A stretch of DNA of 61,054 nt. Origin: a virus. Taxonomy: Duplodnaviria; Caudoviricetes. The stretch spans positions 1-61,054 of the IMG/VR virus record IMGVR_UViG_3300032225_000600, one strand, 5' to 3'. Position 1 is the stretch's first letter. Every line of letters starts with the position of its first letter. Positions 23,735-61,053 of this stretch are shown piece by piece. The notes below the pieces were generated by a model. That model had not been told where the DNA came from, searched no databases, and saw nothing but the letters and a program-made list of their open reading frames with translations. The translations under genes and the position numbers were made by a program.

Positions 23735-23833
23735 ATGAGTGAGCAACAAGAATTAGAAGACCTTTTTGAATTACAGGTAATAATTATACTGTTAATTTAT
23801 TGGGCACATTTTTGGTACACACTCCTGCATTAA
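23735..23833 (+). CDS. 32-aa hydrophobic peptide (not in ORF track)
   Basis: MSEQQELEDLFELQVIIILLIYWAHFWYTLLH; TAAATA 6 nt upstream. Confidence 0.4.
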   Translation: MSEQQELEDLFELQVIIILLIYWAHFWYTLLH

Positions 23834-23837
23834 AGAA

Positions 23838-24175
23838 TTGTTGTAACTCCTTCAAAGCGAAGGCGTTCTGGACGCCGGTTCGACTCCGGCCAGGTCCACC
23901 TAAGCATACTCCGAACCGAGTATTCTGGTAGCAAGGCGAAAGCTGAGTGTGCTTAGATGGGCCTGCATTGGTTTCGACAGGGCGAGATAGTAGAGACGGC
24001 AACACAGTAGGCGATGACTGTAAATCAAGCAAAACTCGTAAATGCAAACGCAGATACAAACGACTTCACAGCAATGAGCTTCACTGGTAACACTGTTACT
24101 GGCAAAAGCAAAGTTGCTCTAGCTGCCTAAAAAACAGCAGGTCCGAGGCAGCTATGCCTTGTCATCCAAAATAGT
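23838..24175 (+). ncRNA. ssrA: tmRNA, circularly permuted (two-piece) gene
   Basis: T-arm and acceptor 3' strand CAGGTCC-ACC (23891-23900) precede the 5' end GGGCCTG...GGTTTCGAC (23959). G3:U wobble present. Tag frame 24044-24130 reads ANADTNDFTAMSFTGNTVTGKSKVALAA*. Outer ends approximate. Confidence 0.92.
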
Positions 24176-24203
24176 AGAAAGCACCTTCGGGTGCTTTCTT
24201 TTT
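24176..24203 (+). terminator. Intrinsic terminator
   Basis: AGAAAGCACC-TTCG-GGTGCTTTCTTTTT. Confidence 0.9.
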
Positions 24204-57040: not shown

Positions 57041-57077
57041 TGTGGCGTAAATGCCACATTATATGGCTGTATTTAGG

Positions 57078-57106
57078 TTGACAGCTAAATAAAAGTAGCA
57101 TACAAT
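57078..57106 (+). promoter_or_regulatory. Sigma70 promoter P1 of the tRNA region
   Basis: TTGACA-17-TACAAT. Confidence 0.8.
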
Positions 57107-57162
57107 AGATACAGTTGTTTAGGAAAGGTCAAAATTTATTTTGTTAGAAATGCAAATAAAGG

Positions 57163-57191
57163 TTGACAGCTAGTCTAAATAGCTGTATAAT
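57163..57191 (+). promoter_or_regulatory. Sigma70 promoter P2 of the tRNA region
   Basis: TTGACA-17-TATAAT; shares GGTTGACAGCTA with P1. Confidence 0.85.
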
Positions 57192-57248
57192 TAACACATA
57201 GACAGCAAAGTGTTGTCTACAAGAACAAAGGTTATAAAGAGAAAGCAA

Positions 57249-57389
57249 ATGCAAAACGTATCATTACATAGAAATTGTAAATCGATAGCCCAGGTGGGAG
57301 GCTTTATGCCCTCTTATTGGCTAGCGATTAATAGTCTATCAAATGATCGTACACCAGAGATTCAAAGGGTCCGGAGGACTGTCGTGTAA
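57249..57389 (+). CDS. Putative attenuator leader peptide, 46 aa (not in ORF track)
   Basis: MQNVSLHRNCKSIAQVGGFMPSYWLAINSLSNDRTPEIQRVRRTVV; 3' end overlaps the antiterminator arm. Confidence 0.65.
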   Translation: MQNVSLHRNCKSIAQVGGFMPSYWLAINSLSNDRTPEIQRVRRTVV

Positions 57390-57416
57390 CACACAAGTTA
57401 ACACAACAAACTTCAA

Positions 57417-57454
57417 GGACCCTAGGATTAAAAACCCTGGGGTTTTTTGTTTTT
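57417..57454 (+). terminator. Attenuator-type intrinsic terminator with competing antiterminator
   Basis: GGACCCTAGG/CCTGGGGTTT plus T tract; GGACCCT can instead pair with AGGGTCC at 57366-57372. Confidence 0.8.
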
Positions 57455-57465
57455 AGGAAAGGAAA

Positions 57466-57642
57466 ATGGAACAGATAGATTATACGAAATTGAATGAACG
57501 TATTGTTGAACAGGCTTATGAAGCCGCTTTTAGTAATACTCTTACTAAAGAACAGCTTCAAAAACTTATTCAAGATAAGTTTGAACGTGCTAGAGTATAT
57601 CACGAAGCGTTAGCGAAAGCACCAACGTTTAGTGTAAACTAA
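57466..57642 (+). CDS. 58-aa helical protein (not in ORF track)
   Basis: AGGAAAGGA SD; MEQIDYTKLNERIVEQAYEAAF... Confidence 0.65.
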   Translation: MEQIDYTKLNERIVEQAYEAAFSNTLTKEQLQKLIQDKFERARVYHEALAKAPTFSVN

Positions 57643-57854
57643 AGTACAAAGTGTGATAAGAGGTAACGAGGACCTCGCTGGGCACTATAAACATCTGGCA
57701 AACGGGCGGACTAGTGGATGGCTTATCCTTGTGTGGATAAAAAAATACTAGTTATATTAAAGCATTCTATAGGGACGGCCACACCCATAGCGTGGTACTG
57801 CATAGCAGGCGTTATTAGAATGTTTTAATATACACATTGGAAACAGTGTGCTAT

Positions 57855-57941
57855 GGAGGTGTGTGCCGAGCGGCGAAGGCAGCTGACTGTAAATCAGTGA
57901 CATCAGAAACACCGTAGGTTCGATTCCTACCGCCTCCACCA
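57855..57941 (+). tRNA. tRNA-Tyr(GTA)
   Basis: Cloverleaf; loop CTGTAAA; long variable region; CCA encoded. Confidence 0.9.
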
Positions 57942-57947
57942 AATAAT

Positions 57948-58037
57948 GGAAATGTGGCAGAGTCCGGTTTATTGCAACAGTCTTGAAAACTGTCGTGTCG
58001 AAAGGCACCGTGAGTTCGAATCTCACCGTTTCCGCCA
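57948..58037 (+). tRNA. tRNA-Ser(TGA)
   Basis: Loop CTTGAAA; long variable arm; GCCA end. Confidence 0.93.
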
Positions 58038-58044
58038 AGAGTAT

Positions 58045-58118
58045 GTATCCCTAGTGTAATGGCAGCATTACAGTCTCCAAAACTGTCGGTCGGGGTTCGA
58101 GTCCCTGGGGGTACGCCA
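58045..58118 (+). tRNA. tRNA-Trp(CCA)
   Basis: Loop CTCCAAA; GCCA end. Confidence 0.92.
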
Positions 58119-58121
58119 TAT

Positions 58122-58196
58122 AGCCTATTAGCTCAGTGGTAGAGCACCGTCTTGATAAGGCGGGGGTCCTTGGATCGTTCCCAAGATAGGCTACCA
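58122..58196 (+). tRNA. tRNA-Ile(GAT)
   Basis: Loop TTGATAA; atypical T loop ATCGTTC. Confidence 0.88.
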
Positions 58197-58206
58197 ATTT
58201 TTCTGT

Positions 58207-58280
58207 TCGGGAATGGTGTAATGGTAACACAACACACTTTGACTGTGTCGTTCTAGGTTCGAGTCCTAGTTCCCGTGCCA
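58207..58280 (+). tRNA. tRNA-Gln(TTG)
   Basis: Loop CTTTGAC; 1-72 mismatch; GCCA end. Confidence 0.9.
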
Positions 58281-58287
58281 AGTTTAT

Positions 58288-58364
58288 CGGTCCGTAACTC
58301 AATGGATTAGAGTGCTAGTCTTCGAAACTAGAGGTTGGGAGTTCGAGTCTCTCCGGGCCGGCCA
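58288..58364 (+). tRNA. tRNA-Arg(TCG)
   Basis: Loop CTTCGAA; GCCA end. Confidence 0.9.
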
Positions 58365-58370
58365 ATCAAT

Positions 58371-58446
58371 GGTGTCTTTAGTGTAGTGGCCTGCACCCTG
58401 CTCTGTGAAAGCGGTAGTACCGGATCGATACCGGTAAGGCACCCCA
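58371..58446 (+). tRNA. tRNA-His(GTG)
   Basis: Loop CTGTGAA; G-1:C73; T loop ATCGATA. Confidence 0.88.
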
Positions 58447-58455
58447 ATTGTTAAT

Positions 58456-58547
58456 GCCAGCGAGACTTGGAAGTCAGAGAGGTCTTATACGCCTTTTAGC
58501 GCCAGATTAGCGTTCTTGAGAGGGTTCGATCCCCTCCGCTGGTACCA
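58456..58547 (+). tRNA. Atypical tRNA with TAT anticodon (nominally Ile) and long variable arm
   Basis: Acceptor GCCAGCG/CGCTGGT-ACCA; tiny D loop; loop CTTATAC; canonical T arm. Confidence 0.65.
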
Positions 58548-58549
58548 AT

Positions 58550-58625
58550 GCTACTTTAGCTGATGTGGTCATAGCGGTGGTTTGAAGAGCCATTGAACCA
58601 GGTTCGATCCCTGGAGGTAGCACCA
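58550..58625 (+). tRNA. tRNA-Phe(GAA)
   Basis: Loop TTGAAGA; ACCA end. Confidence 0.9.
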
Positions 58626-58636
58626 TAAATATCTTT

Positions 58637-59290
58637 ATGCGTATATGTATAGCCGGAGACAGTTGGGGTTGCGGAGAGTGGGGCAAGAATGCTCAAAAAG
58701 AATACACCGTGTTACATCGAGGTCTTGAACAGTATCTTCGAGATCGCGGACACACAGTTGACAATCTTTCTGAAGGCTCAATTTCTAATAAAGAATCAAT
58801 AGGCAGAGTGATGTCTAATGAAAAACTCTACGACTTTACATTGTGGTTCCAAACAGATCCGTTACGTGATCTAAGGCCCTACGATATTTTTAAAGAGCAG
58901 CATCTAACTCACAAGCAGCTGGTCAATCTCAGTAATGATTTGTTAAACGAAAGTTACAGTAGATTAACAAAACCTGTTCTTTGTATTGGCGGATGTAGTA
59001 AATTAAATTTAAATCTGATGTCAAATTATACAAATCTGTATCCTTTGATAGCCAGTGTGCCTGAAATGTTGATACCAAAGTTTAAACATCCTAGACTTTG
59101 GCAAAGCGATTGGGCTGCACTAGTTGATCGACAATTTGATGGAGATTCATTACGTAGACTGGCTGCTGATAAACAGTGTCAAGATAGACTGTTCGCGGAA
59201 ACAGAATTATTTTGGCCAGATGGCAGACATCCCAATCGCCAAGGTCACAAAGTTCTTTGTGATTATATCTGCGATAAACTATCGCTCTAA
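58637..59290 (+). CDS. SGNH hydrolase-like protein inserted in the tRNA array
   Basis: IAGDSW, G.SN and DGRHPN..GH motifs; TAAATA 5 nt upstream. Confidence 0.8.
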   Translation: MRICIAGDSWGCGEWGKNAQKEYTVLHRGLEQYLRDRGHTVDNLSEGSISNKESIGRVMSNEKLYDFTLWFQTDPLRDLRPYDIFKEQHLTHKQLVNLSNDLLNESYSRLTKPVLCIGGCSKLNLNLMSNYTNLYPLIASVPEMLIPKFKHPRLWQSDWAALVDRQFDGDSLRRLAADKQCQDRLFAETELFWPDGRHPNRQGHKVLCDYICDKLSL

Positions 59291-59368
59291 GCCCTGCTGG
59301 ACAAATTGGTAAAGTCACTTCTCTCAAAAGGAAGGAGCATCCCTGTTCGAATCAGGGGCAGGGTACCA
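59291..59368 (+). tRNA. tRNA-Leu(CAA), short variable region
   Basis: Loop CTCAAAA; Leu-type D loop; ACCA end. Confidence 0.82.
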
Positions 59369-59394
59369 ATGTTGTGAAAATACAACAAAAGCAC

Positions 59395-59423
59395 TTGACA
59401 AAAGCAGTTAGTGGTGCTACAAT
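59395..59423 (+). promoter_or_regulatory. Internal sigma70 promoter in the tRNA array
   Basis: TTGACA-17-TACAAT with extended TG. Confidence 0.8.
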
Positions 59424-59438
59424 AGATACTTAAACAAT

Positions 59439-59516
59439 GCAACGATGGCAGAGAGGTCCAATGCACGGGATTGCAAATCCTGAAAACCGGGGGTTCAAAT
59501 CCCTCTCGTTGCTCCA
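59439..59516 (+). tRNA. tRNA-Cys(GCA)
   Basis: Loop TTGCAAA; U73 plus CCA. Confidence 0.9.
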
Positions 59517-59549
59517 GTTCTTTAACAATTTAGTTTAGTTTGATTTTAT

Positions 59550-59624
59550 GCTCGGGTCGTCTATCGGTTAGGACACCGCCCTTTCACGGCGGGAAGAGGG
59601 GTTCGATTCCCCTTCCGAGTACCA
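59550..59624 (+). tRNA. tRNA-Glu(TTC)
   Basis: Loop CTTTCAC; ACCA end. Confidence 0.93.
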
Positions 59625-59850
59625 AATTTAATTGCATTAGGTTACCAACTCCAGTAGGTACCCTAGTAGAGAATTATTCCTAGTGACGGCTAGGCTCTAT
59701 TAGGACTACACGAAAGCGGACCCGAAAGGGCGAGACACGCTGGATCAAGTTGGCAGGTAATGTGATTGATAGACAAGTCCGTGGACGGCACGGTAGGGCA
59801 GGTTCAAAACTGTTTCTTCTATCAAACATCCTAGTGTAATTAAATTTGGT
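59621..59850 (+). ncRNA. Candidate ~230-nt multibranched structured RNA
   Basis: 21-bp closing stem and about nine internal helices; no ORF. Confidence 0.6.
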
Positions 59851-59901
59851 TTATTTTAAAAGGAGAGTCCAAATGGACAGTGACAAGAGTGAGAAGATGA
59901 T

Positions 59902-59977
59902 GGGACGTTAGCTCAGTAGGTAGAGCAGTAGACTTTTAATCTATTGGTCATTGGTTCGAATCCAATACGTCCTACCA
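59902..59977 (+). tRNA. tRNA-Lys(TTT)
   Basis: Loop CTTTTAA; ACCA end. Confidence 0.94.
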
Positions 59978-59990
59978 TATAAAAACATAC

Positions 59991-60056
59991 TGGATCTTCT
60001 AGTGGACTAAGACGCTGGCAATAGGTCGGTGAACGTGGTGTTCGAATCCCACTCTA
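59991..60056 (+). pseudogene. Degenerate tRNA-like element inside a spacer hairpin
   Basis: D-arm-like TCTT-CTAGTGGACT-AAGA; stem GCTGG/TCGGT; T-arm-like GTGGTGTTCGAATCCCAC; no CCA. Confidence 0.45.
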
Positions 60057-60070
60057 GTGTGTTTCTATAT

Positions 60071-60145
60071 GGTAATGTAGCATAATGGTCGTGCAGCACC
60101 TTCATACGGTGTCCAGTGTAGGTTCGAGTCCTACCATTACCACCA
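60071..60145 (+). tRNA. tRNA-CAT (elongator Met or Ile2)
   Basis: Loop TTCATAC; paired 1-72, so not an initiator. Confidence 0.88.
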
Positions 60146-60150
60146 AGTTT

Positions 60151-60225
60151 GGTCCTATCGATTAGGGGTTAAGTCATCGCCCTGTCACGGCGAAGTCACG
60201 GGTTCGATTCCCGTTGGGACCGCCA
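60151..60225 (+). tRNA. tRNA-Asp(GTC)
   Basis: Loop CTGTCAC; GCCA end. Confidence 0.92.
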
Positions 60226-60248
60226 GACATTTTTATAAGTAATACACT

Positions 60249-60331
60249 GCCCCGATGGTGGAATTGGTAGACACGGTGGTCTTAGAAGCCACTGCTTCGG
60301 CATCCGAGTTCGAGTCTCGGTTGGGGCACCA
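60249..60331 (+). tRNA. tRNA-Leu(TAG)
   Basis: Loop CTTAGAA; variable arm TGC-TTCG-GCA. Confidence 0.93.
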
Positions 60332-60439
60332 TATATAAATGTACTTAAATCCGTTAAAAGATCAGGTTTGGTATCCCAGTCTCTGCGTTGGCATAGCCCG
60401 CATACTTAATACACCTTAGTATGTTTATATATGATTTAT

Positions 60440-60515
60440 GGGTCGTTAGCTCAGTTGGTAGAGCGTCTGCCTTACACGCAGAATGTCGGCAGTTCGAGAC
60501 TGTCACGACCCACCA
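60440..60515 (+). tRNA. tRNA-Val(TAC)
   Basis: Loop CTTACAC; ACCA end. Confidence 0.94.
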
Positions 60516-60531
60516 TCCGAGGAGAAACTGT

Positions 60532-60672
60532 ATGTCGAGTAAAGAAACGTTAGACAAGGCATACGGTAATATGCCTAAAGAAGTAGGCTTCAATGTTGAC
60601 TGGGGATTCATTCCAAGTTGGCGAGGTGTGAAGTACTATTGGTACAAGATACTACGTAAGATAACAAGATAA
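60532..60672 (+). CDS. 46-aa hypothetical protein
   Basis: GAGGAG SD; MSSKETLDKAYGNMPKEVG... Confidence 0.65.
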   Translation: MSSKETLDKAYGNMPKEVGFNVDWGFIPSWRGVKYYWYKILRKITR

Positions 60673-60674
60673 AT

Positions 60675-60764
60675 GGAATGGTCCCATAATGGTATTGGAG
60701 CGGATTGCTAATCCGTCGATCGGCGAAAGTCGGTTTCTGGGTTCAAGTCCCAGTCATTCCGCCA
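60675..60764 (+). tRNA. tRNA-Ser(GCT)
   Basis: Loop TTGCTAA; long variable arm; GCCA end. Confidence 0.9.
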
Positions 60765-60776
60765 GTTTTAGTTTTT

Positions 60777-60852
60777 GGGGGTTTAGCTCATCTGGGAGAG
60801 CGGCAGCTTTGCAAGCTGTAGGTGATCGGTTCGAGTCCGATAACCTCCACCA
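60777..60852 (+). tRNA. tRNA-Ala(TGC)
   Basis: Loop TTTGCAA; G3:U70. Confidence 0.94.
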
Positions 60853-60858
60853 AAATAT

Positions 60859-60934
60859 TCCCTAGTAGCTCAGAGGTAGAAGCACCTGACTGTTAATCAG
60901 GGTGTCGGTGGTTCGATCCCACCCTGGGGAGCCA
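60859..60934 (+). tRNA. tRNA-Asn(GTT)
   Basis: Loop CTGTTAA; GCCA end. Confidence 0.93.
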
Positions 60935-60977
60935 GTTTTTTAAATTCTAGTCAATGCTAGACATATATACTTTTATT

Positions 60978-61053
60978 GCCCCTTTAGCTCATCTGGTAGA
61001 GCAACTGATTTGTAATCAGTAGGTGGTCTGTTCGAGTCGGACAAGGGGCACCA
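60978..61053 (+). tRNA. tRNA-Thr(TGT)
   Basis: Loop TTTGTAA; ACCA end. Confidence 0.93.

What the first reader, a model, noticed from the sequence alone, without database searches (positions are those of the whole stretch)
57163..57454. Pan-codon leader-peptide attenuator that may switch on the tRNA array when any host tRNA fails
Seen: two tandem sigma70 promoters precede a 46-codon ORF (57249-57389) containing all 20 amino acids and 36 distinct codons by hand count. Of its first 27 codons 26 differ, and it includes ATA, AGA, AGG, CGG, CTA, TCG, CCC and GGA. Its last codons carry AGGGTCC-GGAG (57366-57376), the 5' arm of a long hairpin closed by CTTC-AA-GGACCCT (57411-57423). That same GGACCCT is the 5' arm of an intrinsic terminator (GGACCCTAGG/CCTGGGGTTT plus T tract). 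The 21-tRNA array lies downstream. Established: trp/his-type attenuators have this geometry but use runs of one amino acid; host anticodon nucleases (PrrC, VapC, PARIS AriB) deplete tRNAs and phage tRNAs can compensate. Inference: a ribosome reaching the stop masks the antiterminator (array off), while stalling at any upstream codon permits read-through. That would make it a general tRNA-pool sensor driving an inducible counter-defence. I know of no described example.
Basis: partly seen in the sequence, partly recalled or inferred. Interest (0 to 1): 0.93.

Follow-up and report, generated by a model that had tools for sequence, protein, structure and literature searches.

The report
All-amino-acid leader gating phage tRNAs
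A short gene in front of a giant phage's tRNA genes spells out every one of the 20 amino acids and ends inside an RNA on/off switch, so it probably lets the phage make more tRNAs whenever translation of any amino acid slows down.

Summary
The window is a fragment of an uncultured freshwater jumbo phage. Two near-consensus promoters drive a 46-codon ORF (57249-57389). Its last codons form the 5' arm of a hairpin (H3) whose 3' arm is also the 5' arm of an intrinsic terminator; 21 tRNA genes follow. In IMG/VR relatives the element is always followed by a same-strand tRNA array (105 of 105 loci). Of 111 unique leader ORFs (median 47 aa), 92 hold all 20 amino acids, 16 hold 19 and 3 hold 18. Only 2.4% of same-length windows in this phage's genes do, and 0-7 of 111 in the other five frames. 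Rare residues (Cys, Tyr, Phe) change position but are not lost; a tree-aware null never reached the observed count. One nucleotide shared by H3 and the terminator covaries with both partners. Masking a ribosome footprint switches the predicted fold from antiterminator to terminator at codon 36/37. Where some tRNA genes lie upstream of the leader, the leader tends to lack those residues; this link is suggestive and imperfect. Best reading: a ribosome-mediated attenuator that senses all amino acids, not all codons. The counter-defence purpose is untested. No experiment and no precedent was found.

The parts
57078..57106 (+). Upstream sigma-70-type promoter P1 (TTGACA-17-TACAAT)
   Evidence: Scores 11 of 12. 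Of 105 unique upstream regions of relatives, 103 have at least one site scoring 10 of 12 or better, and 76 have two or three.
57163..57191 (+). Promoter P2 (TTGACA-17-TATAAT, perfect consensus); the inferred transcript start is near 57198
   Evidence: Both promoters share the extended motif AGGTTGACAGCTA. The start site is inferred, not mapped.
57199..57219 (+). H1, a 9-bp hairpin at the predicted 5' end of the transcript
   Evidence: Present in the MFE fold. Relatives have a hairpin of different sequence at the same place; this was seen by eye in the sequences printed and was not counted.
57236..57245 (+). Purine-rich Shine-Dalgarno-like tract (AAAGAGAAAG), 3-12 nt before the ATG
   Evidence: Sequence read. 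A crude SD-like motif lies at -16..-4 in 71 of 105 unique upstream regions.
57249..57389 (+). Leader ORF: 46 codons plus TAA, all 20 amino acids, 36 distinct codons
   Evidence: The family has 111 unique ORFs, of which 92 hold 20 types. In the other five frames, 0, 0, 7, 0 and 4 of 111 hold 20 types. No PHROG or Pfam match.
57256..57350 (+). H2, a long imperfect hairpin predicted over codons 3-34 of the leader. It may be a pause or synchronising hairpin; that role is inferred.
   Evidence: Per-sequence MFE in 25 relatives gives z from -0.8 to -5.4. RNAalifold on a MAFFT alignment did not recover it, so its conservation as a structure is not established.
57366..57423 (+). H3, the antiterminator hairpin. 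The 5' arm AGGGTCC-GGAG (57366-57376) lies in codons 40-43, the stop codon (57387-57389) lies inside, and the 3' arm is CTTC-AA-GGACCCT (57411-57423).
   Evidence: H3 alone folds at -25.4 kcal/mol. It forms in the unconstrained MFE of 24 of 25 relatives. The flanking pair is A-T in 58, G-C in 43 and G-T in 2 of 108 unique regions, with 5 mismatches.
57415..57454 (+). Intrinsic terminator T. The stem core CCCTAGG (57420-57426) pairs with CCTGGGG (57436-57442), followed by TTTTTTGTTTTT. Its 5' arm shares 57417-57423 with H3.
   Evidence: T alone folds at -15.3 kcal/mol. It forms 7 of 7 core pairs when a ribosome footprint covers codons 37 to the stop. The terminator's 3' partner covaries with the shared base: (C,G) 45, (T,G) 37, (T,A) 20, (C,A) 0.
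57466..57642 (+). 58-aa ORF directly after the terminator; function unknown; optional in relatives
   Evidence: Weak hits only. Absent in L009 and L010, where the terminator is followed directly by the pre-array RNA.
57643..57854 (+). Conserved, structured non-coding stretch between the attenuator and the first tRNA gene
   Evidence: Alignment. Of 122 loci, 72 carry its core motif. An alifold consensus has double changes in 17 of 19 predicted pairs. No Rfam match.
57855..61053 (+). tRNA array: 21 genes for 18 amino-acid types, cut by the window end. It is interrupted by a 217-aa ORF (58637-59290) and has an internal promoter-like site at 59395-59423.

Best explanation
This is a ribosome-mediated transcription attenuator placed between strong host-type promoters and the phage's tRNA gene array. 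Its leader peptide is kept as a near-complete 'pangram' of the 20 amino acids.

Proposed mechanism:
1. Host RNA polymerase starts at P1 or P2 and transcribes the leader.
2. A ribosome translates the 46-codon ORF.
3. If it runs through without delay, it covers the 5' arm of hairpin H3 (codons 40-43, and at the stop) while the polymerase makes the terminator. The shared segment GGACCCT then pairs downstream, the terminator forms, and the tRNA array is not transcribed.
4. If the ribosome is delayed at any codon before about codon 37, because the matching aminoacyl-tRNA is short, or if no ribosome is loaded, H3 forms first. It locks up GGACCCT, the terminator cannot form, and the polymerase reads into the 58-aa ORF, the structured pre-array RNA and the tRNA genes.

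Every amino acid is represented, mostly once. The element would therefore report a shortage of any one of them and give feedback control of the phage's own tRNA supply.

Shown by computation here: the sequence anatomy; the conservation and covariation of the two exclusive stems; the constant link to tRNA arrays; and selection for amino-acid completeness in the reading frame.

Inferred: that the ORF is translated; the timing between ribosome and polymerase; the direction of the response; and its biological purpose.
For: 1. Anatomy confirmed.

2. The switch. With a footprint of A-site -15..+11 nt, the MFE keeps 7 of 7 H3 pairs and 0 of 7 terminator pairs for A-site codons 1-36. It gives 0-2 of 7 H3 pairs and 7 of 7 terminator pairs for codons 37-47. 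The same behaviour is predicted in relatives and in a sequence-divergent subfamily, where the switch is at codon 30/31.

3. Three-way covariation in 108 unique H3/T regions.
- The base after GGACCC pairs with the base before GGGTCC as A-T in 58, G-C in 43 and G-T in 2; 5 are mismatched.
- It pairs with the terminator's 3' arm as C-G in 45, T-G in 37 and T-A in 20; C-A never occurs.
- L005 changes GGGTCC/GGACCC to GGGTTC/GAACCC and has two double changes in the terminator.

4. Synteny. All 105 of 105 loci with at least 1.5 kb downstream have a same-strand tRNA array starting 200-1229 nt after the terminator, with a median of 15 tRNAs within 4 kb. The search motif held no tRNA sequence. The motif occurs once in each of the two records CheckV rates 100% complete.

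5. Pangram.
- Of 111 unique complete ORFs, 92 hold 20 types, 16 hold 19 and 3 hold 18. The background is 2.4% with 20 types.
- The other five frames of the same DNA give 0, 0, 7, 0 and 4 of 111.
- Cys is single-copy in 24 of 25 first-set peptides yet sits in 9 alignment columns. Tyr is at column 24 or 36 in 23 of 25 (two more peptides have it at other columns only) and is never absent.
- The window and L002 are 97% identical in DNA and differ by Y23S plus N32Y.
- A tree-aware simulation with independent columns gives a mean of 4.4 of 25 leaves with 20 types, maximum 18 in 3000 runs; 24 were observed. Conditioned on one real all-20 sequence, the mean is 4-6 of 24 and 23 was never reached in 1500 runs, for each of three starting sequences.

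6. Link between leader content and tRNA content.
- In G001 and G002 the leader lies between two tRNA clusters. tRNAs for Glu, Tyr, Asp, Arg and His lie upstream. The leader lacks H, R, V, Y and either D or E. 14 of the 16 downstream tRNA types are in the leader.
- G005's array has 30 tRNAs and lacks only Trp; its leader lacks only Trp.
- G010 has Glu, Tyr and Asp tRNAs upstream, and its leader lacks E and Y.
- Pooled over 11 records the counts are 11/21/9/179, Fisher P = 8e-6, permutation P = 0.0034.

7. Promoters are conserved in 103 of 105 unique upstream regions.
Against: - No experiment bears on this: no ribosome footprint, no mapped RNA ends, no reporter. RNA-library contigs cannot show ends or levels.
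- The all-20 property partly depends on the tail. Only 71 of 111 leaders have all 20 types before the point where a stalled ribosome would still leave H3 free, and only 40 of 111 if that point is one codon earlier. Glu (42 leaders) and Val (17) are often found only in the tail, where a stall should favour termination.
- Close relatives share peptide motifs (W, NDR-T-P). These could mean a function of the peptide itself, or constraint from RNA structure.
- H2 was not recovered by consensus folding, so the pause step has no support.
- The leader/array match is imperfect. In 9 cases the leader lacks a residue although the tRNA gene is downstream, and in 21 the array lacks a type that the leader keeps. 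G011 keeps E and Y with the same gene order as G010. The first estimate (8 of 11) was inflated by arrays cut at locus ends and fell to 5 of 11.
- The 11 records were chosen because their leaders are imperfect, and several are related.
- There is no anti-antiterminator, so an untranslated leader would read through. This differs from trp-type control.
- A second small ORF plus terminator in G001 shows no predicted antiterminator.
- The footprint model is thermodynamic only.
Confidence: 0.7

Rival explanations
1. It is an ordinary small phage protein gene (46 aa) with its own intrinsic terminator. H3 is only a structured 3' end that stabilises the mRNA, and the peptide has a function of its own.
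For: Close relatives share peptide motifs (IAKQ.G.P.SW.AI..SLSNDRTPE). The ORF has a start codon and a purine-rich tract before it. A small ORF followed by a plain terminator, with no predicted antiterminator, also exists in G001.
Against: It does not explain several results:
- why 92 of 111 peptides of about 47 aa contain all 20 amino acids while rare residues move between positions;
- why the terminator's 5' arm is always shared with a covarying upstream partner inside the ORF;
- why a tRNA array always follows;
- why leaders placed behind some tRNA genes tend to lack those residues.

The peptide has no Pfam or PHROG family, and identity across the family falls below 40%.
Confidence: 0.08
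2. It is an attenuator that measures only overall ribosome-polymerase coupling or initiation capacity, as pyrBI or pyrE do, and not the supply of each amino acid. Amino-acid completeness would then be a side effect of selecting for an 'average' coding sample.
For: The switch geometry responds to any delay, whatever its cause. With no ribosome the fold reads through. Many residues occur once only, so each single codon gives a short delay. Leader and array contents match imperfectly.
Against: A pure speed gauge needs no Cys, Trp or His codon. Yet these single-copy residues are kept by relocation, and the frame-specific excess of 20-type peptides is large. Leaders lose residues preferentially when the matching tRNA gene is not downstream (odds ratio about 10; selected sample).
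Confidence: 0.12
3. The roughly 250-nt promoter-to-terminator transcript is chiefly a structured small RNA that acts in trans or as a decoy. Translation of its ORF would be secondary or would only modulate its stability.
For: The fold is very stable (-81 kcal/mol, z = -6.45). There are hairpins at the 5' end and over most of the ORF. Liberated attenuator RNAs with a trans function are known from the literature; I saw only the search-listing abstract of PMC6614838.
Against: No Rfam family matches. H2 has no consensus support. The properties under the clearest selection are read in one frame only. This reading is compatible with the attenuator as an added function rather than a replacement for it.
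Confidence: 0.05

Closest known systems
Leader-peptide attenuators of amino-acid operons in enterobacteria (trpL, hisL, leuL, pheL; multivalent thrL and ilvL). Recalled from established knowledge; I also saw the search-listing abstracts of PMC3082878 and PMC4046918.
   Same: A short translated leader lies between the promoter and the regulated genes. An intrinsic terminator shares its 5' arm with an upstream antiterminator. The stop codon sits so that a ribosome finishing the leader favours the terminator, while a ribosome stalled earlier favours the antiterminator.
   Different: Known leaders carry runs of codons for one amino acid (at most three, in ilvL and thrL) and control biosynthetic or synthetase genes. 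This one carries nearly every amino acid, mostly once, and controls tRNA genes of a phage. It has no 1:2 anti-antiterminator, so no translation should mean read-through rather than super-attenuation.
pyrBI / pyrE attenuators (coupling of the ribosome to a UTP-sensitive polymerase). Recalled.
   Same: Read-through depends on how closely a ribosome follows the polymerase, not on one cognate amino acid.
   Different: In pyrBI the leader ORF runs through the terminator and a close ribosome prevents termination. Here the stop lies 21-32 nt before the shared arm, and a close ribosome is predicted to cause termination.
T-box riboswitches. Recalled.
   Same: They couple transcription read-through to the charging state of tRNA and so control genes of the translation apparatus.
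   Different: A T-box binds one specific uncharged tRNA directly, without a ribosome or an ORF. No T-box or other Rfam family matches here.
Phage tRNA genes as a reply to host tRNA-targeting defences (eLife 2023, PMC10264068; Nat Commun 2024, PMC11555353; PMC12409363). I saw the search-listing abstracts only.
   Same: These papers explain why a phage would profit from supplying its own tRNAs when host tRNAs are depleted.
   Different: Judging by their abstracts, they deal with the tRNAs themselves, not with a sensor that controls their transcription. Nothing here shows that this element responds to a defence system.

Membership tests
Ribosome-mediated (leader-peptide) transcription attenuators | A short ORF with a start codon and ribosome-binding tract between the promoter and the regulated genes | tested here: met
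   The ORF is 57249-57389 with a purine tract at 57236-57245. An ORF of at least 25 codons ending between the two H3 arms is present at 139 of 147 motif hits. Of the 8 without, 6 look like chance matches lacking the terminator, 1 is cut by a contig end, and 1 has an arm mismatch. Translation itself was not shown.
Ribosome-mediated (leader-peptide) transcription attenuators | An intrinsic terminator between the leader and the regulated genes | tested here: met
   A 7-bp GC-rich core plus a T tract lies at 57415-57454 and folds at -15.3 kcal/mol. It is conserved, with compensatory changes. Termination in vivo was not tested.
Ribosome-mediated (leader-peptide) transcription attenuators | An antiterminator that shares a strand with the terminator and overlaps the end of the leader ORF | tested here: met
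   H3 (57366-57423) shares 57417-57423 with the terminator. There is three-way covariation in 108 unique regions. The footprint scan switches at codon 36/37.
Ribosome-mediated (leader-peptide) transcription attenuators | Regulatory codons: a run or enrichment of codons for the cognate amino acid(s) | tested here: not met
   There is no run. The window's leader has 8 residue types present once and none more than five times. In place of enrichment, all 20 types are present.
Ribosome-mediated (leader-peptide) transcription attenuators | An anti-antiterminator / pause hairpin (1:2) that gives termination when the leader is not translated | tested here: not met
   Free RNA folds into H3 with 0 of 7 terminator pairs. 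H2 lies wholly inside the ORF and does not pair with the H3 arm. Its conservation is unproven.
Ribosome-mediated (leader-peptide) transcription attenuators | Read-through responds to the supply of charged tRNA | not testable with these tools
   This needs a reporter, in-vitro coupled transcription-translation, or Term-seq under starvation.
pyrBI-type coupling attenuator | The leader ORF extends through the terminator, so a closely following ribosome blocks hairpin formation | tested here: not met
   The stop codon ends 21-32 nt before the 3' arm of H3 in all 108 unique regions.
Any curated RNA family (Rfam 15) | A match to a covariance model | tested here: not met
   There is no hit in 57041-57854 at E up to 1. 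At gathering scores, the only hits in 1-57900 are to tmRNA.
Known phage or general protein families (PHROGs, Pfam) | A profile match of the 46-aa peptide | tested here: not met
   There are 0 families in PHROGs at E up to 0.01 and 0 in Pfam at E up to 0.1. tblastn against 50,697 phage records gave no match at E up to 1.

The most novel reading that the evidence does not exclude
The leader is a self-matching, many-channel sensor. Each amino acid whose tRNA gene lies under the attenuator's control is represented by at least one codon in the part of the leader where a stall opens the switch. The leader's composition co-evolves with the set of tRNA genes behind it: residues are lost when their tRNA genes move upstream of the leader or are absent. 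A phage would thereby hold the supply of every aminoacyl-tRNA steady during infection. It would switch its whole tRNA array on when any one host tRNA is destroyed or uncharged, including by anticodon nucleases.
Probability: 0.45. Interest if true: 0.95.

Novelty: new variant of a known kind. Interest (0 to 1): 0.9.

Why it matters
Leader-peptide attenuation is a textbook mechanism, but every known case watches one to three amino acids and controls biosynthetic or synthetase genes.

A leader selected to contain all twenty amino acids, controlling a near-complete tRNA set in a virus, would be three things:
- a general sensor of translation supply;
- the first described control of a phage tRNA array by the state of translation, as far as six full-text literature searches show;
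- a natural explanation of how jumbo phages dose their tRNAs.

It bears on an open question: why phages carry tRNAs, and when they use them (codon compensation, host shut-off, or escape from tRNA-targeting immunity).

It is directly testable in a defined in-vitro system by leaving out one amino acid at a time. The part is compact (about 300 bp) and could serve as a generic reporter of translation stress.

Tried and rejected
- **Cultured relatives.** megablast and blastn of the region against 50,697 phage records gave nothing but tRNA matches. tblastn of the peptide gave nothing. A ribonucleotide reductase search gave only distant hits. No cultured relative is at hand.
- **Databases.** Rfam, PHROGs and Pfam have no family for the leader RNA or the peptide.
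- **Terminator scan.** The simple scan missed the terminator because of its 9-nt loop.
- **H2.** RNAalifold on a MAFFT alignment of 20 leaders gave only 9 pairs at -3.3 kcal/mol and did not recover the long hairpin seen in single-sequence folds. I therefore do not claim H2 as conserved.
- **'Pan-codon'.** Rejected as a description. Codon diversity beyond what the peptide requires is weak (P = 0.064 for the window; family mean z = +1.5 using the window's codon usage for all). Several rare codons (AGG GTC CGG AGG) are dictated by the H3 arm.
- **First leader/array test.** It gave 8 of 11 (P about 1e-4), but used arrays cut at locus ends. After fetching longer stretches it fell to 5 of 11. I report the association only as suggestive.
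- **Second leader in G001.** A small ORF before the Glu-Tyr-Asp-Arg-His cluster contains all those residues, but no antiterminator is predicted.
- **RNA evidence.** Four metatranscriptome runs hold contigs over the leader and terminator at 85% likeness or more. Contigs cannot show starts, ends or levels, and the conserved terminator collects relatives. In one run, two contigs carry A-rich loose ends behind 57454; this is a hint at most.
- **Literature.** Six searches listed no paper describing a leader with all amino acids or an attenuator before phage tRNA genes. I read listings and abstract starts only, no full texts and no supplements.
- **Not run.** A metagenome-contig scan, the search for homologous proteins, structure prediction, and a survey of other phage lineages with tRNA arrays.
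Full report
**What is there.** The window is one IMG/VR virus record of 61,054 bases, which CheckV estimates at 17% of a genome. All long ORFs lie on the + strand. Relatives come from contigs of up to about 400 kb, and two of them are rated 100% complete at 354 and 365 kb. This is an uncultured jumbo phage.
- The window also encodes a two-piece tmRNA of the betaproteobacterial type (134.9 bits).

- promoters at 57078-57106 (11 of 12) and 57163-57191 (12 of 12);
- a 46-codon ORF at 57249-57389 with 36 distinct codons and all 20 amino acids;
- the quoted motifs at the quoted positions;
- 21 tRNA genes from 57855 to the window end.

**More than chance?** In 12,233 overlapping 46-codon windows from 59 long ORFs of the window:
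- the number of distinct codons averages 28.1 (sd 2.8), and 36 or more occur in 0.12%;
- all 20 amino acids occur in 2.4%.

Given the peptide, 36 codons is only mildly high (expected 32.7, P = 0.064). The leader uses rarer synonymous codons than expected (P = 0.0008), but several of these are fixed by the hairpin arm. The real oddity is amino-acid completeness, not codon completeness.

**Relatives.** Three searches built the family.
- A search with the neighbouring ClpP-like protease gave 13 loci. Seven carry a region homologous over the ORF (L002, L003, L004, L007-L011 in part). L005 carries a divergent version, L006 has tRNA genes directly, and L012-L014 lack it.
- A scan with a conserved 17-mer from inside the ORF gave 33 stretches. 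Together these gave 25 unique ORFs.
- Among 147 motif hits, 139 have the upstream arm and an ORF ending between the arms. Of the other 8, 6 look like chance matches with no terminator, 1 is cut by a contig end, and 1 has an arm mismatch.
- After trimming ORFs longer than 55 codons to an internal ATG (where one left 40-53 codons) and dropping two cut by contig ends, 111 unique complete ORFs remain, median 47 aa.

**The pangram.** Of these 111 ORFs, 92 contain 20 amino-acid types, 16 contain 19 and 3 contain 18.
- The same DNA read in the other five frames gives 20 types in 0, 0, 7, 0 and 4 of 111. Base composition and hairpin symmetry therefore do not explain it.
- Rare residues move rather than vanish. 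Cys is single-copy in 24 of 25 first-set peptides but occupies 9 alignment columns. Tyr is at column 24 or 36 in 23 of 25 (the other two have it at other columns only) and is never absent. Phe occupies seven columns.
- The window and L002 are 97% identical in DNA and differ by Y23S together with N32Y. L039 has F19V together with L25F.
- A simulation on the family tree, with each column evolving independently under its own residue frequencies and fitted rate, gives a mean of 4.4 of 25 leaves with all 20 (maximum 18 in 3000 runs). The observed number is 24.
- Conditioning on a real all-20 sequence gives means of 4-6 of 24. The observed 23 was never reached in 1500 runs, for each of three starting sequences.
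- Recombination among modules is evident from the shared C-terminal variants. It makes any single tree approximate.
- At single-linkage thresholds of 0.5 and 0.4 identity, only 6 of 14 and 3 of 7 clusters hold an all-20 member. The most divergent members are near-pangrams (18-19 types) rather than perfect ones.

**The switch.**
- The unconstrained fold forms H3 in 24 of 25 first-set sequences. Masking the stop-codon footprint gives a 12-bp terminator in most.
- For the window, H3 alone folds at -25.4 kcal/mol and the terminator at -15.3.
- A footprint placed at each A-site codon keeps H3 (7 of 7 pairs) for codons 1-36 and gives the terminator (7 of 7) from codon 37 to the stop.
- In 108 unique H3/T regions the base that follows GGACCC pairs with the base before GGGTCC as A-T (58), G-C (43) or G-T (2), with 5 mismatches. 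It pairs with the terminator's 3' arm as C-G (45), T-G (37) or T-A (20), and never as C-A. One base covarying with two alternative partners is the signature of two exclusive structures.
- The stop codon lies 14-18 nt after the 5' arm in 96 of 108 regions, and 21-32 nt before the 3' arm in all 108.
- A divergent subfamily (arms GGGGTTC/GAACCCC, ATG 5-7 nt after the -10 box) shows the same switch at codon 30/31.

**Link to tRNAs.**
- All 105 of 105 loci with at least 1.5 kb downstream (loci not de-duplicated by contig) have a same-strand tRNA array starting 200-1229 nt after the terminator.
- Near-consensus promoters precede 103 of 105 unique upstream regions, and 76 have two or three.
- In each of the two complete records the motif occurs once. 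It is therefore not a generic terminator of these phages.

**Does leader content follow tRNA content?**
- In G001 and G002 the leader lies between two tRNA clusters. Glu, Tyr, Asp, Arg, His and Met tRNA genes (and, in G001, one with anticodon CTA) lie upstream. 21-24 tRNAs of 16 types lie downstream.
- This leader has only 15 residue types. It lacks H, R, V, Y and either D or E, and it contains 14 of the 16 downstream types.
- G005's array (30 tRNAs) lacks only Trp, and its leader lacks only Trp.
- G010 has Glu, Tyr and Asp genes upstream, and its leader lacks E and Y. Its relative G011 has the same gene order but keeps both.
- Against this, G006 (lacks C and L), G009 (C), G004 (K), G007 (D) and L062 (C) lack residues whose tRNA genes are downstream.
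- A first test (8 of 11) was inflated by truncated arrays. With longer stretches it is 5 of 11.
- Pooled over 11 records the table is 11/21/9/179 (Fisher P = 8e-6; permuting arrays among records, P = 0.0034). The records were chosen for imperfect leaders and are partly related. I call the link suggestive.

**Weak points.**
- Nothing shows translation, termination or regulation directly.
- RNA-library contigs from four runs cover the leader and terminator but cannot show ends or levels.
- Only 71 of 111 leaders hold all 20 types in the stretch where a stall would leave H3 free, and only 40 of 111 with a boundary one codon earlier. Glu sits right at that boundary in many leaders, or only in the tail.
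- H2, the long hairpin over codons 3-34, is predicted in single sequences but not by consensus folding.
- Without a ribosome the fold reads through, unlike trp-type control.

**Comparison and novelty.** The element works like a leader-peptide attenuator and meets three structural criteria of that class. It fails two: it has no run of cognate codons and no anti-antiterminator. It also controls tRNA genes rather than biosynthetic genes.
- It matches no Rfam, Pfam or PHROG family and no cultured phage record.
- Six full-text searches listed no description of such a leader. I saw listings and abstracts only.
- I rate it a new variant of a known kind.

**Verdict.** The counter-defence purpose is untested. 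Confidence in the attenuator reading is 0.7 and interest is 0.9.

Noticed in passing
window 23798-24201 (+): The phage encodes a tmRNA of the two-piece (permuted) betaproteobacterial type: RF01850 at 134.9 bits and RF04321 at 138.2 bits. ARAGORN gives a tag peptide ending in VALAA. With the tRNA set, this shows heavy investment in translation and hints at a betaproteobacterial host.
   Followed up: partly
window 57643-57854 (+): A conserved structured non-coding RNA lies between the attenuator (or the 58-aa ORF) and the first tRNA gene. Its core motif is in 72 of 122 loci. A consensus fold has double changes in 17 of 19 predicted pairs. No Rfam match. Function unknown; it may be a processing or leader element of the array.
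   Followed up: partly
window 57466-57642 (+): A 58-aa ORF starts 12 nt after the terminator's T tract. It is conserved in most relatives but absent in L009 and L010. Its only hits are weak and below threshold (PHROG 28270, Pfam GUN4).
   Followed up: no
window 58637-59290 and 59395-59423 (+): A 217-aa ORF with no family match interrupts the tRNA array. A strong promoter-like site (11 of 12, with TG) sits just before tRNA-Cys, so the later part of the array may have its own unattenuated start.
   Followed up: no
G001 (L206, about 1.8 kb upstream of its leader); L225 (G006); L227 (G009): Relatives carry a tRNA with anticodon CTA, which ARAGORN labels 'Pyl'. It looks like an amber-suppressor tRNA and lies outside the leader-controlled array.
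   Followed up: no
G001, G002, G009, G010, G011, G013 upstream of the leader; L226 in G006: A trio of tRNA-Met(CAT), Arg(TCT) and Leu(TAA) recurs as a separate block that is not downstream of the leader. In G006 it lies on the other strand, about 110 kb away.
   Followed up: no
L157, L158, L165, L185, L187, L193: In the divergent subfamily the leader's ATG lies 5-7 nt after the -10 hexamer. The mRNA would therefore be leaderless or nearly so.
   Followed up: no
window 57366-57423 and homologues: The C-terminal tail and inner H3 hairpin come in a few discrete modules (…RVRRTVV, …RVREGWDG, …GSxExxV) that are shuffled among otherwise different leaders. This points to recombination within the element.
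   Followed up: no
window 57454 (run X19): Two RNA-library contigs carry A-rich loose ends directly behind the terminator's T tract. They could be tails on terminated RNA or assembly noise.
   Followed up: no
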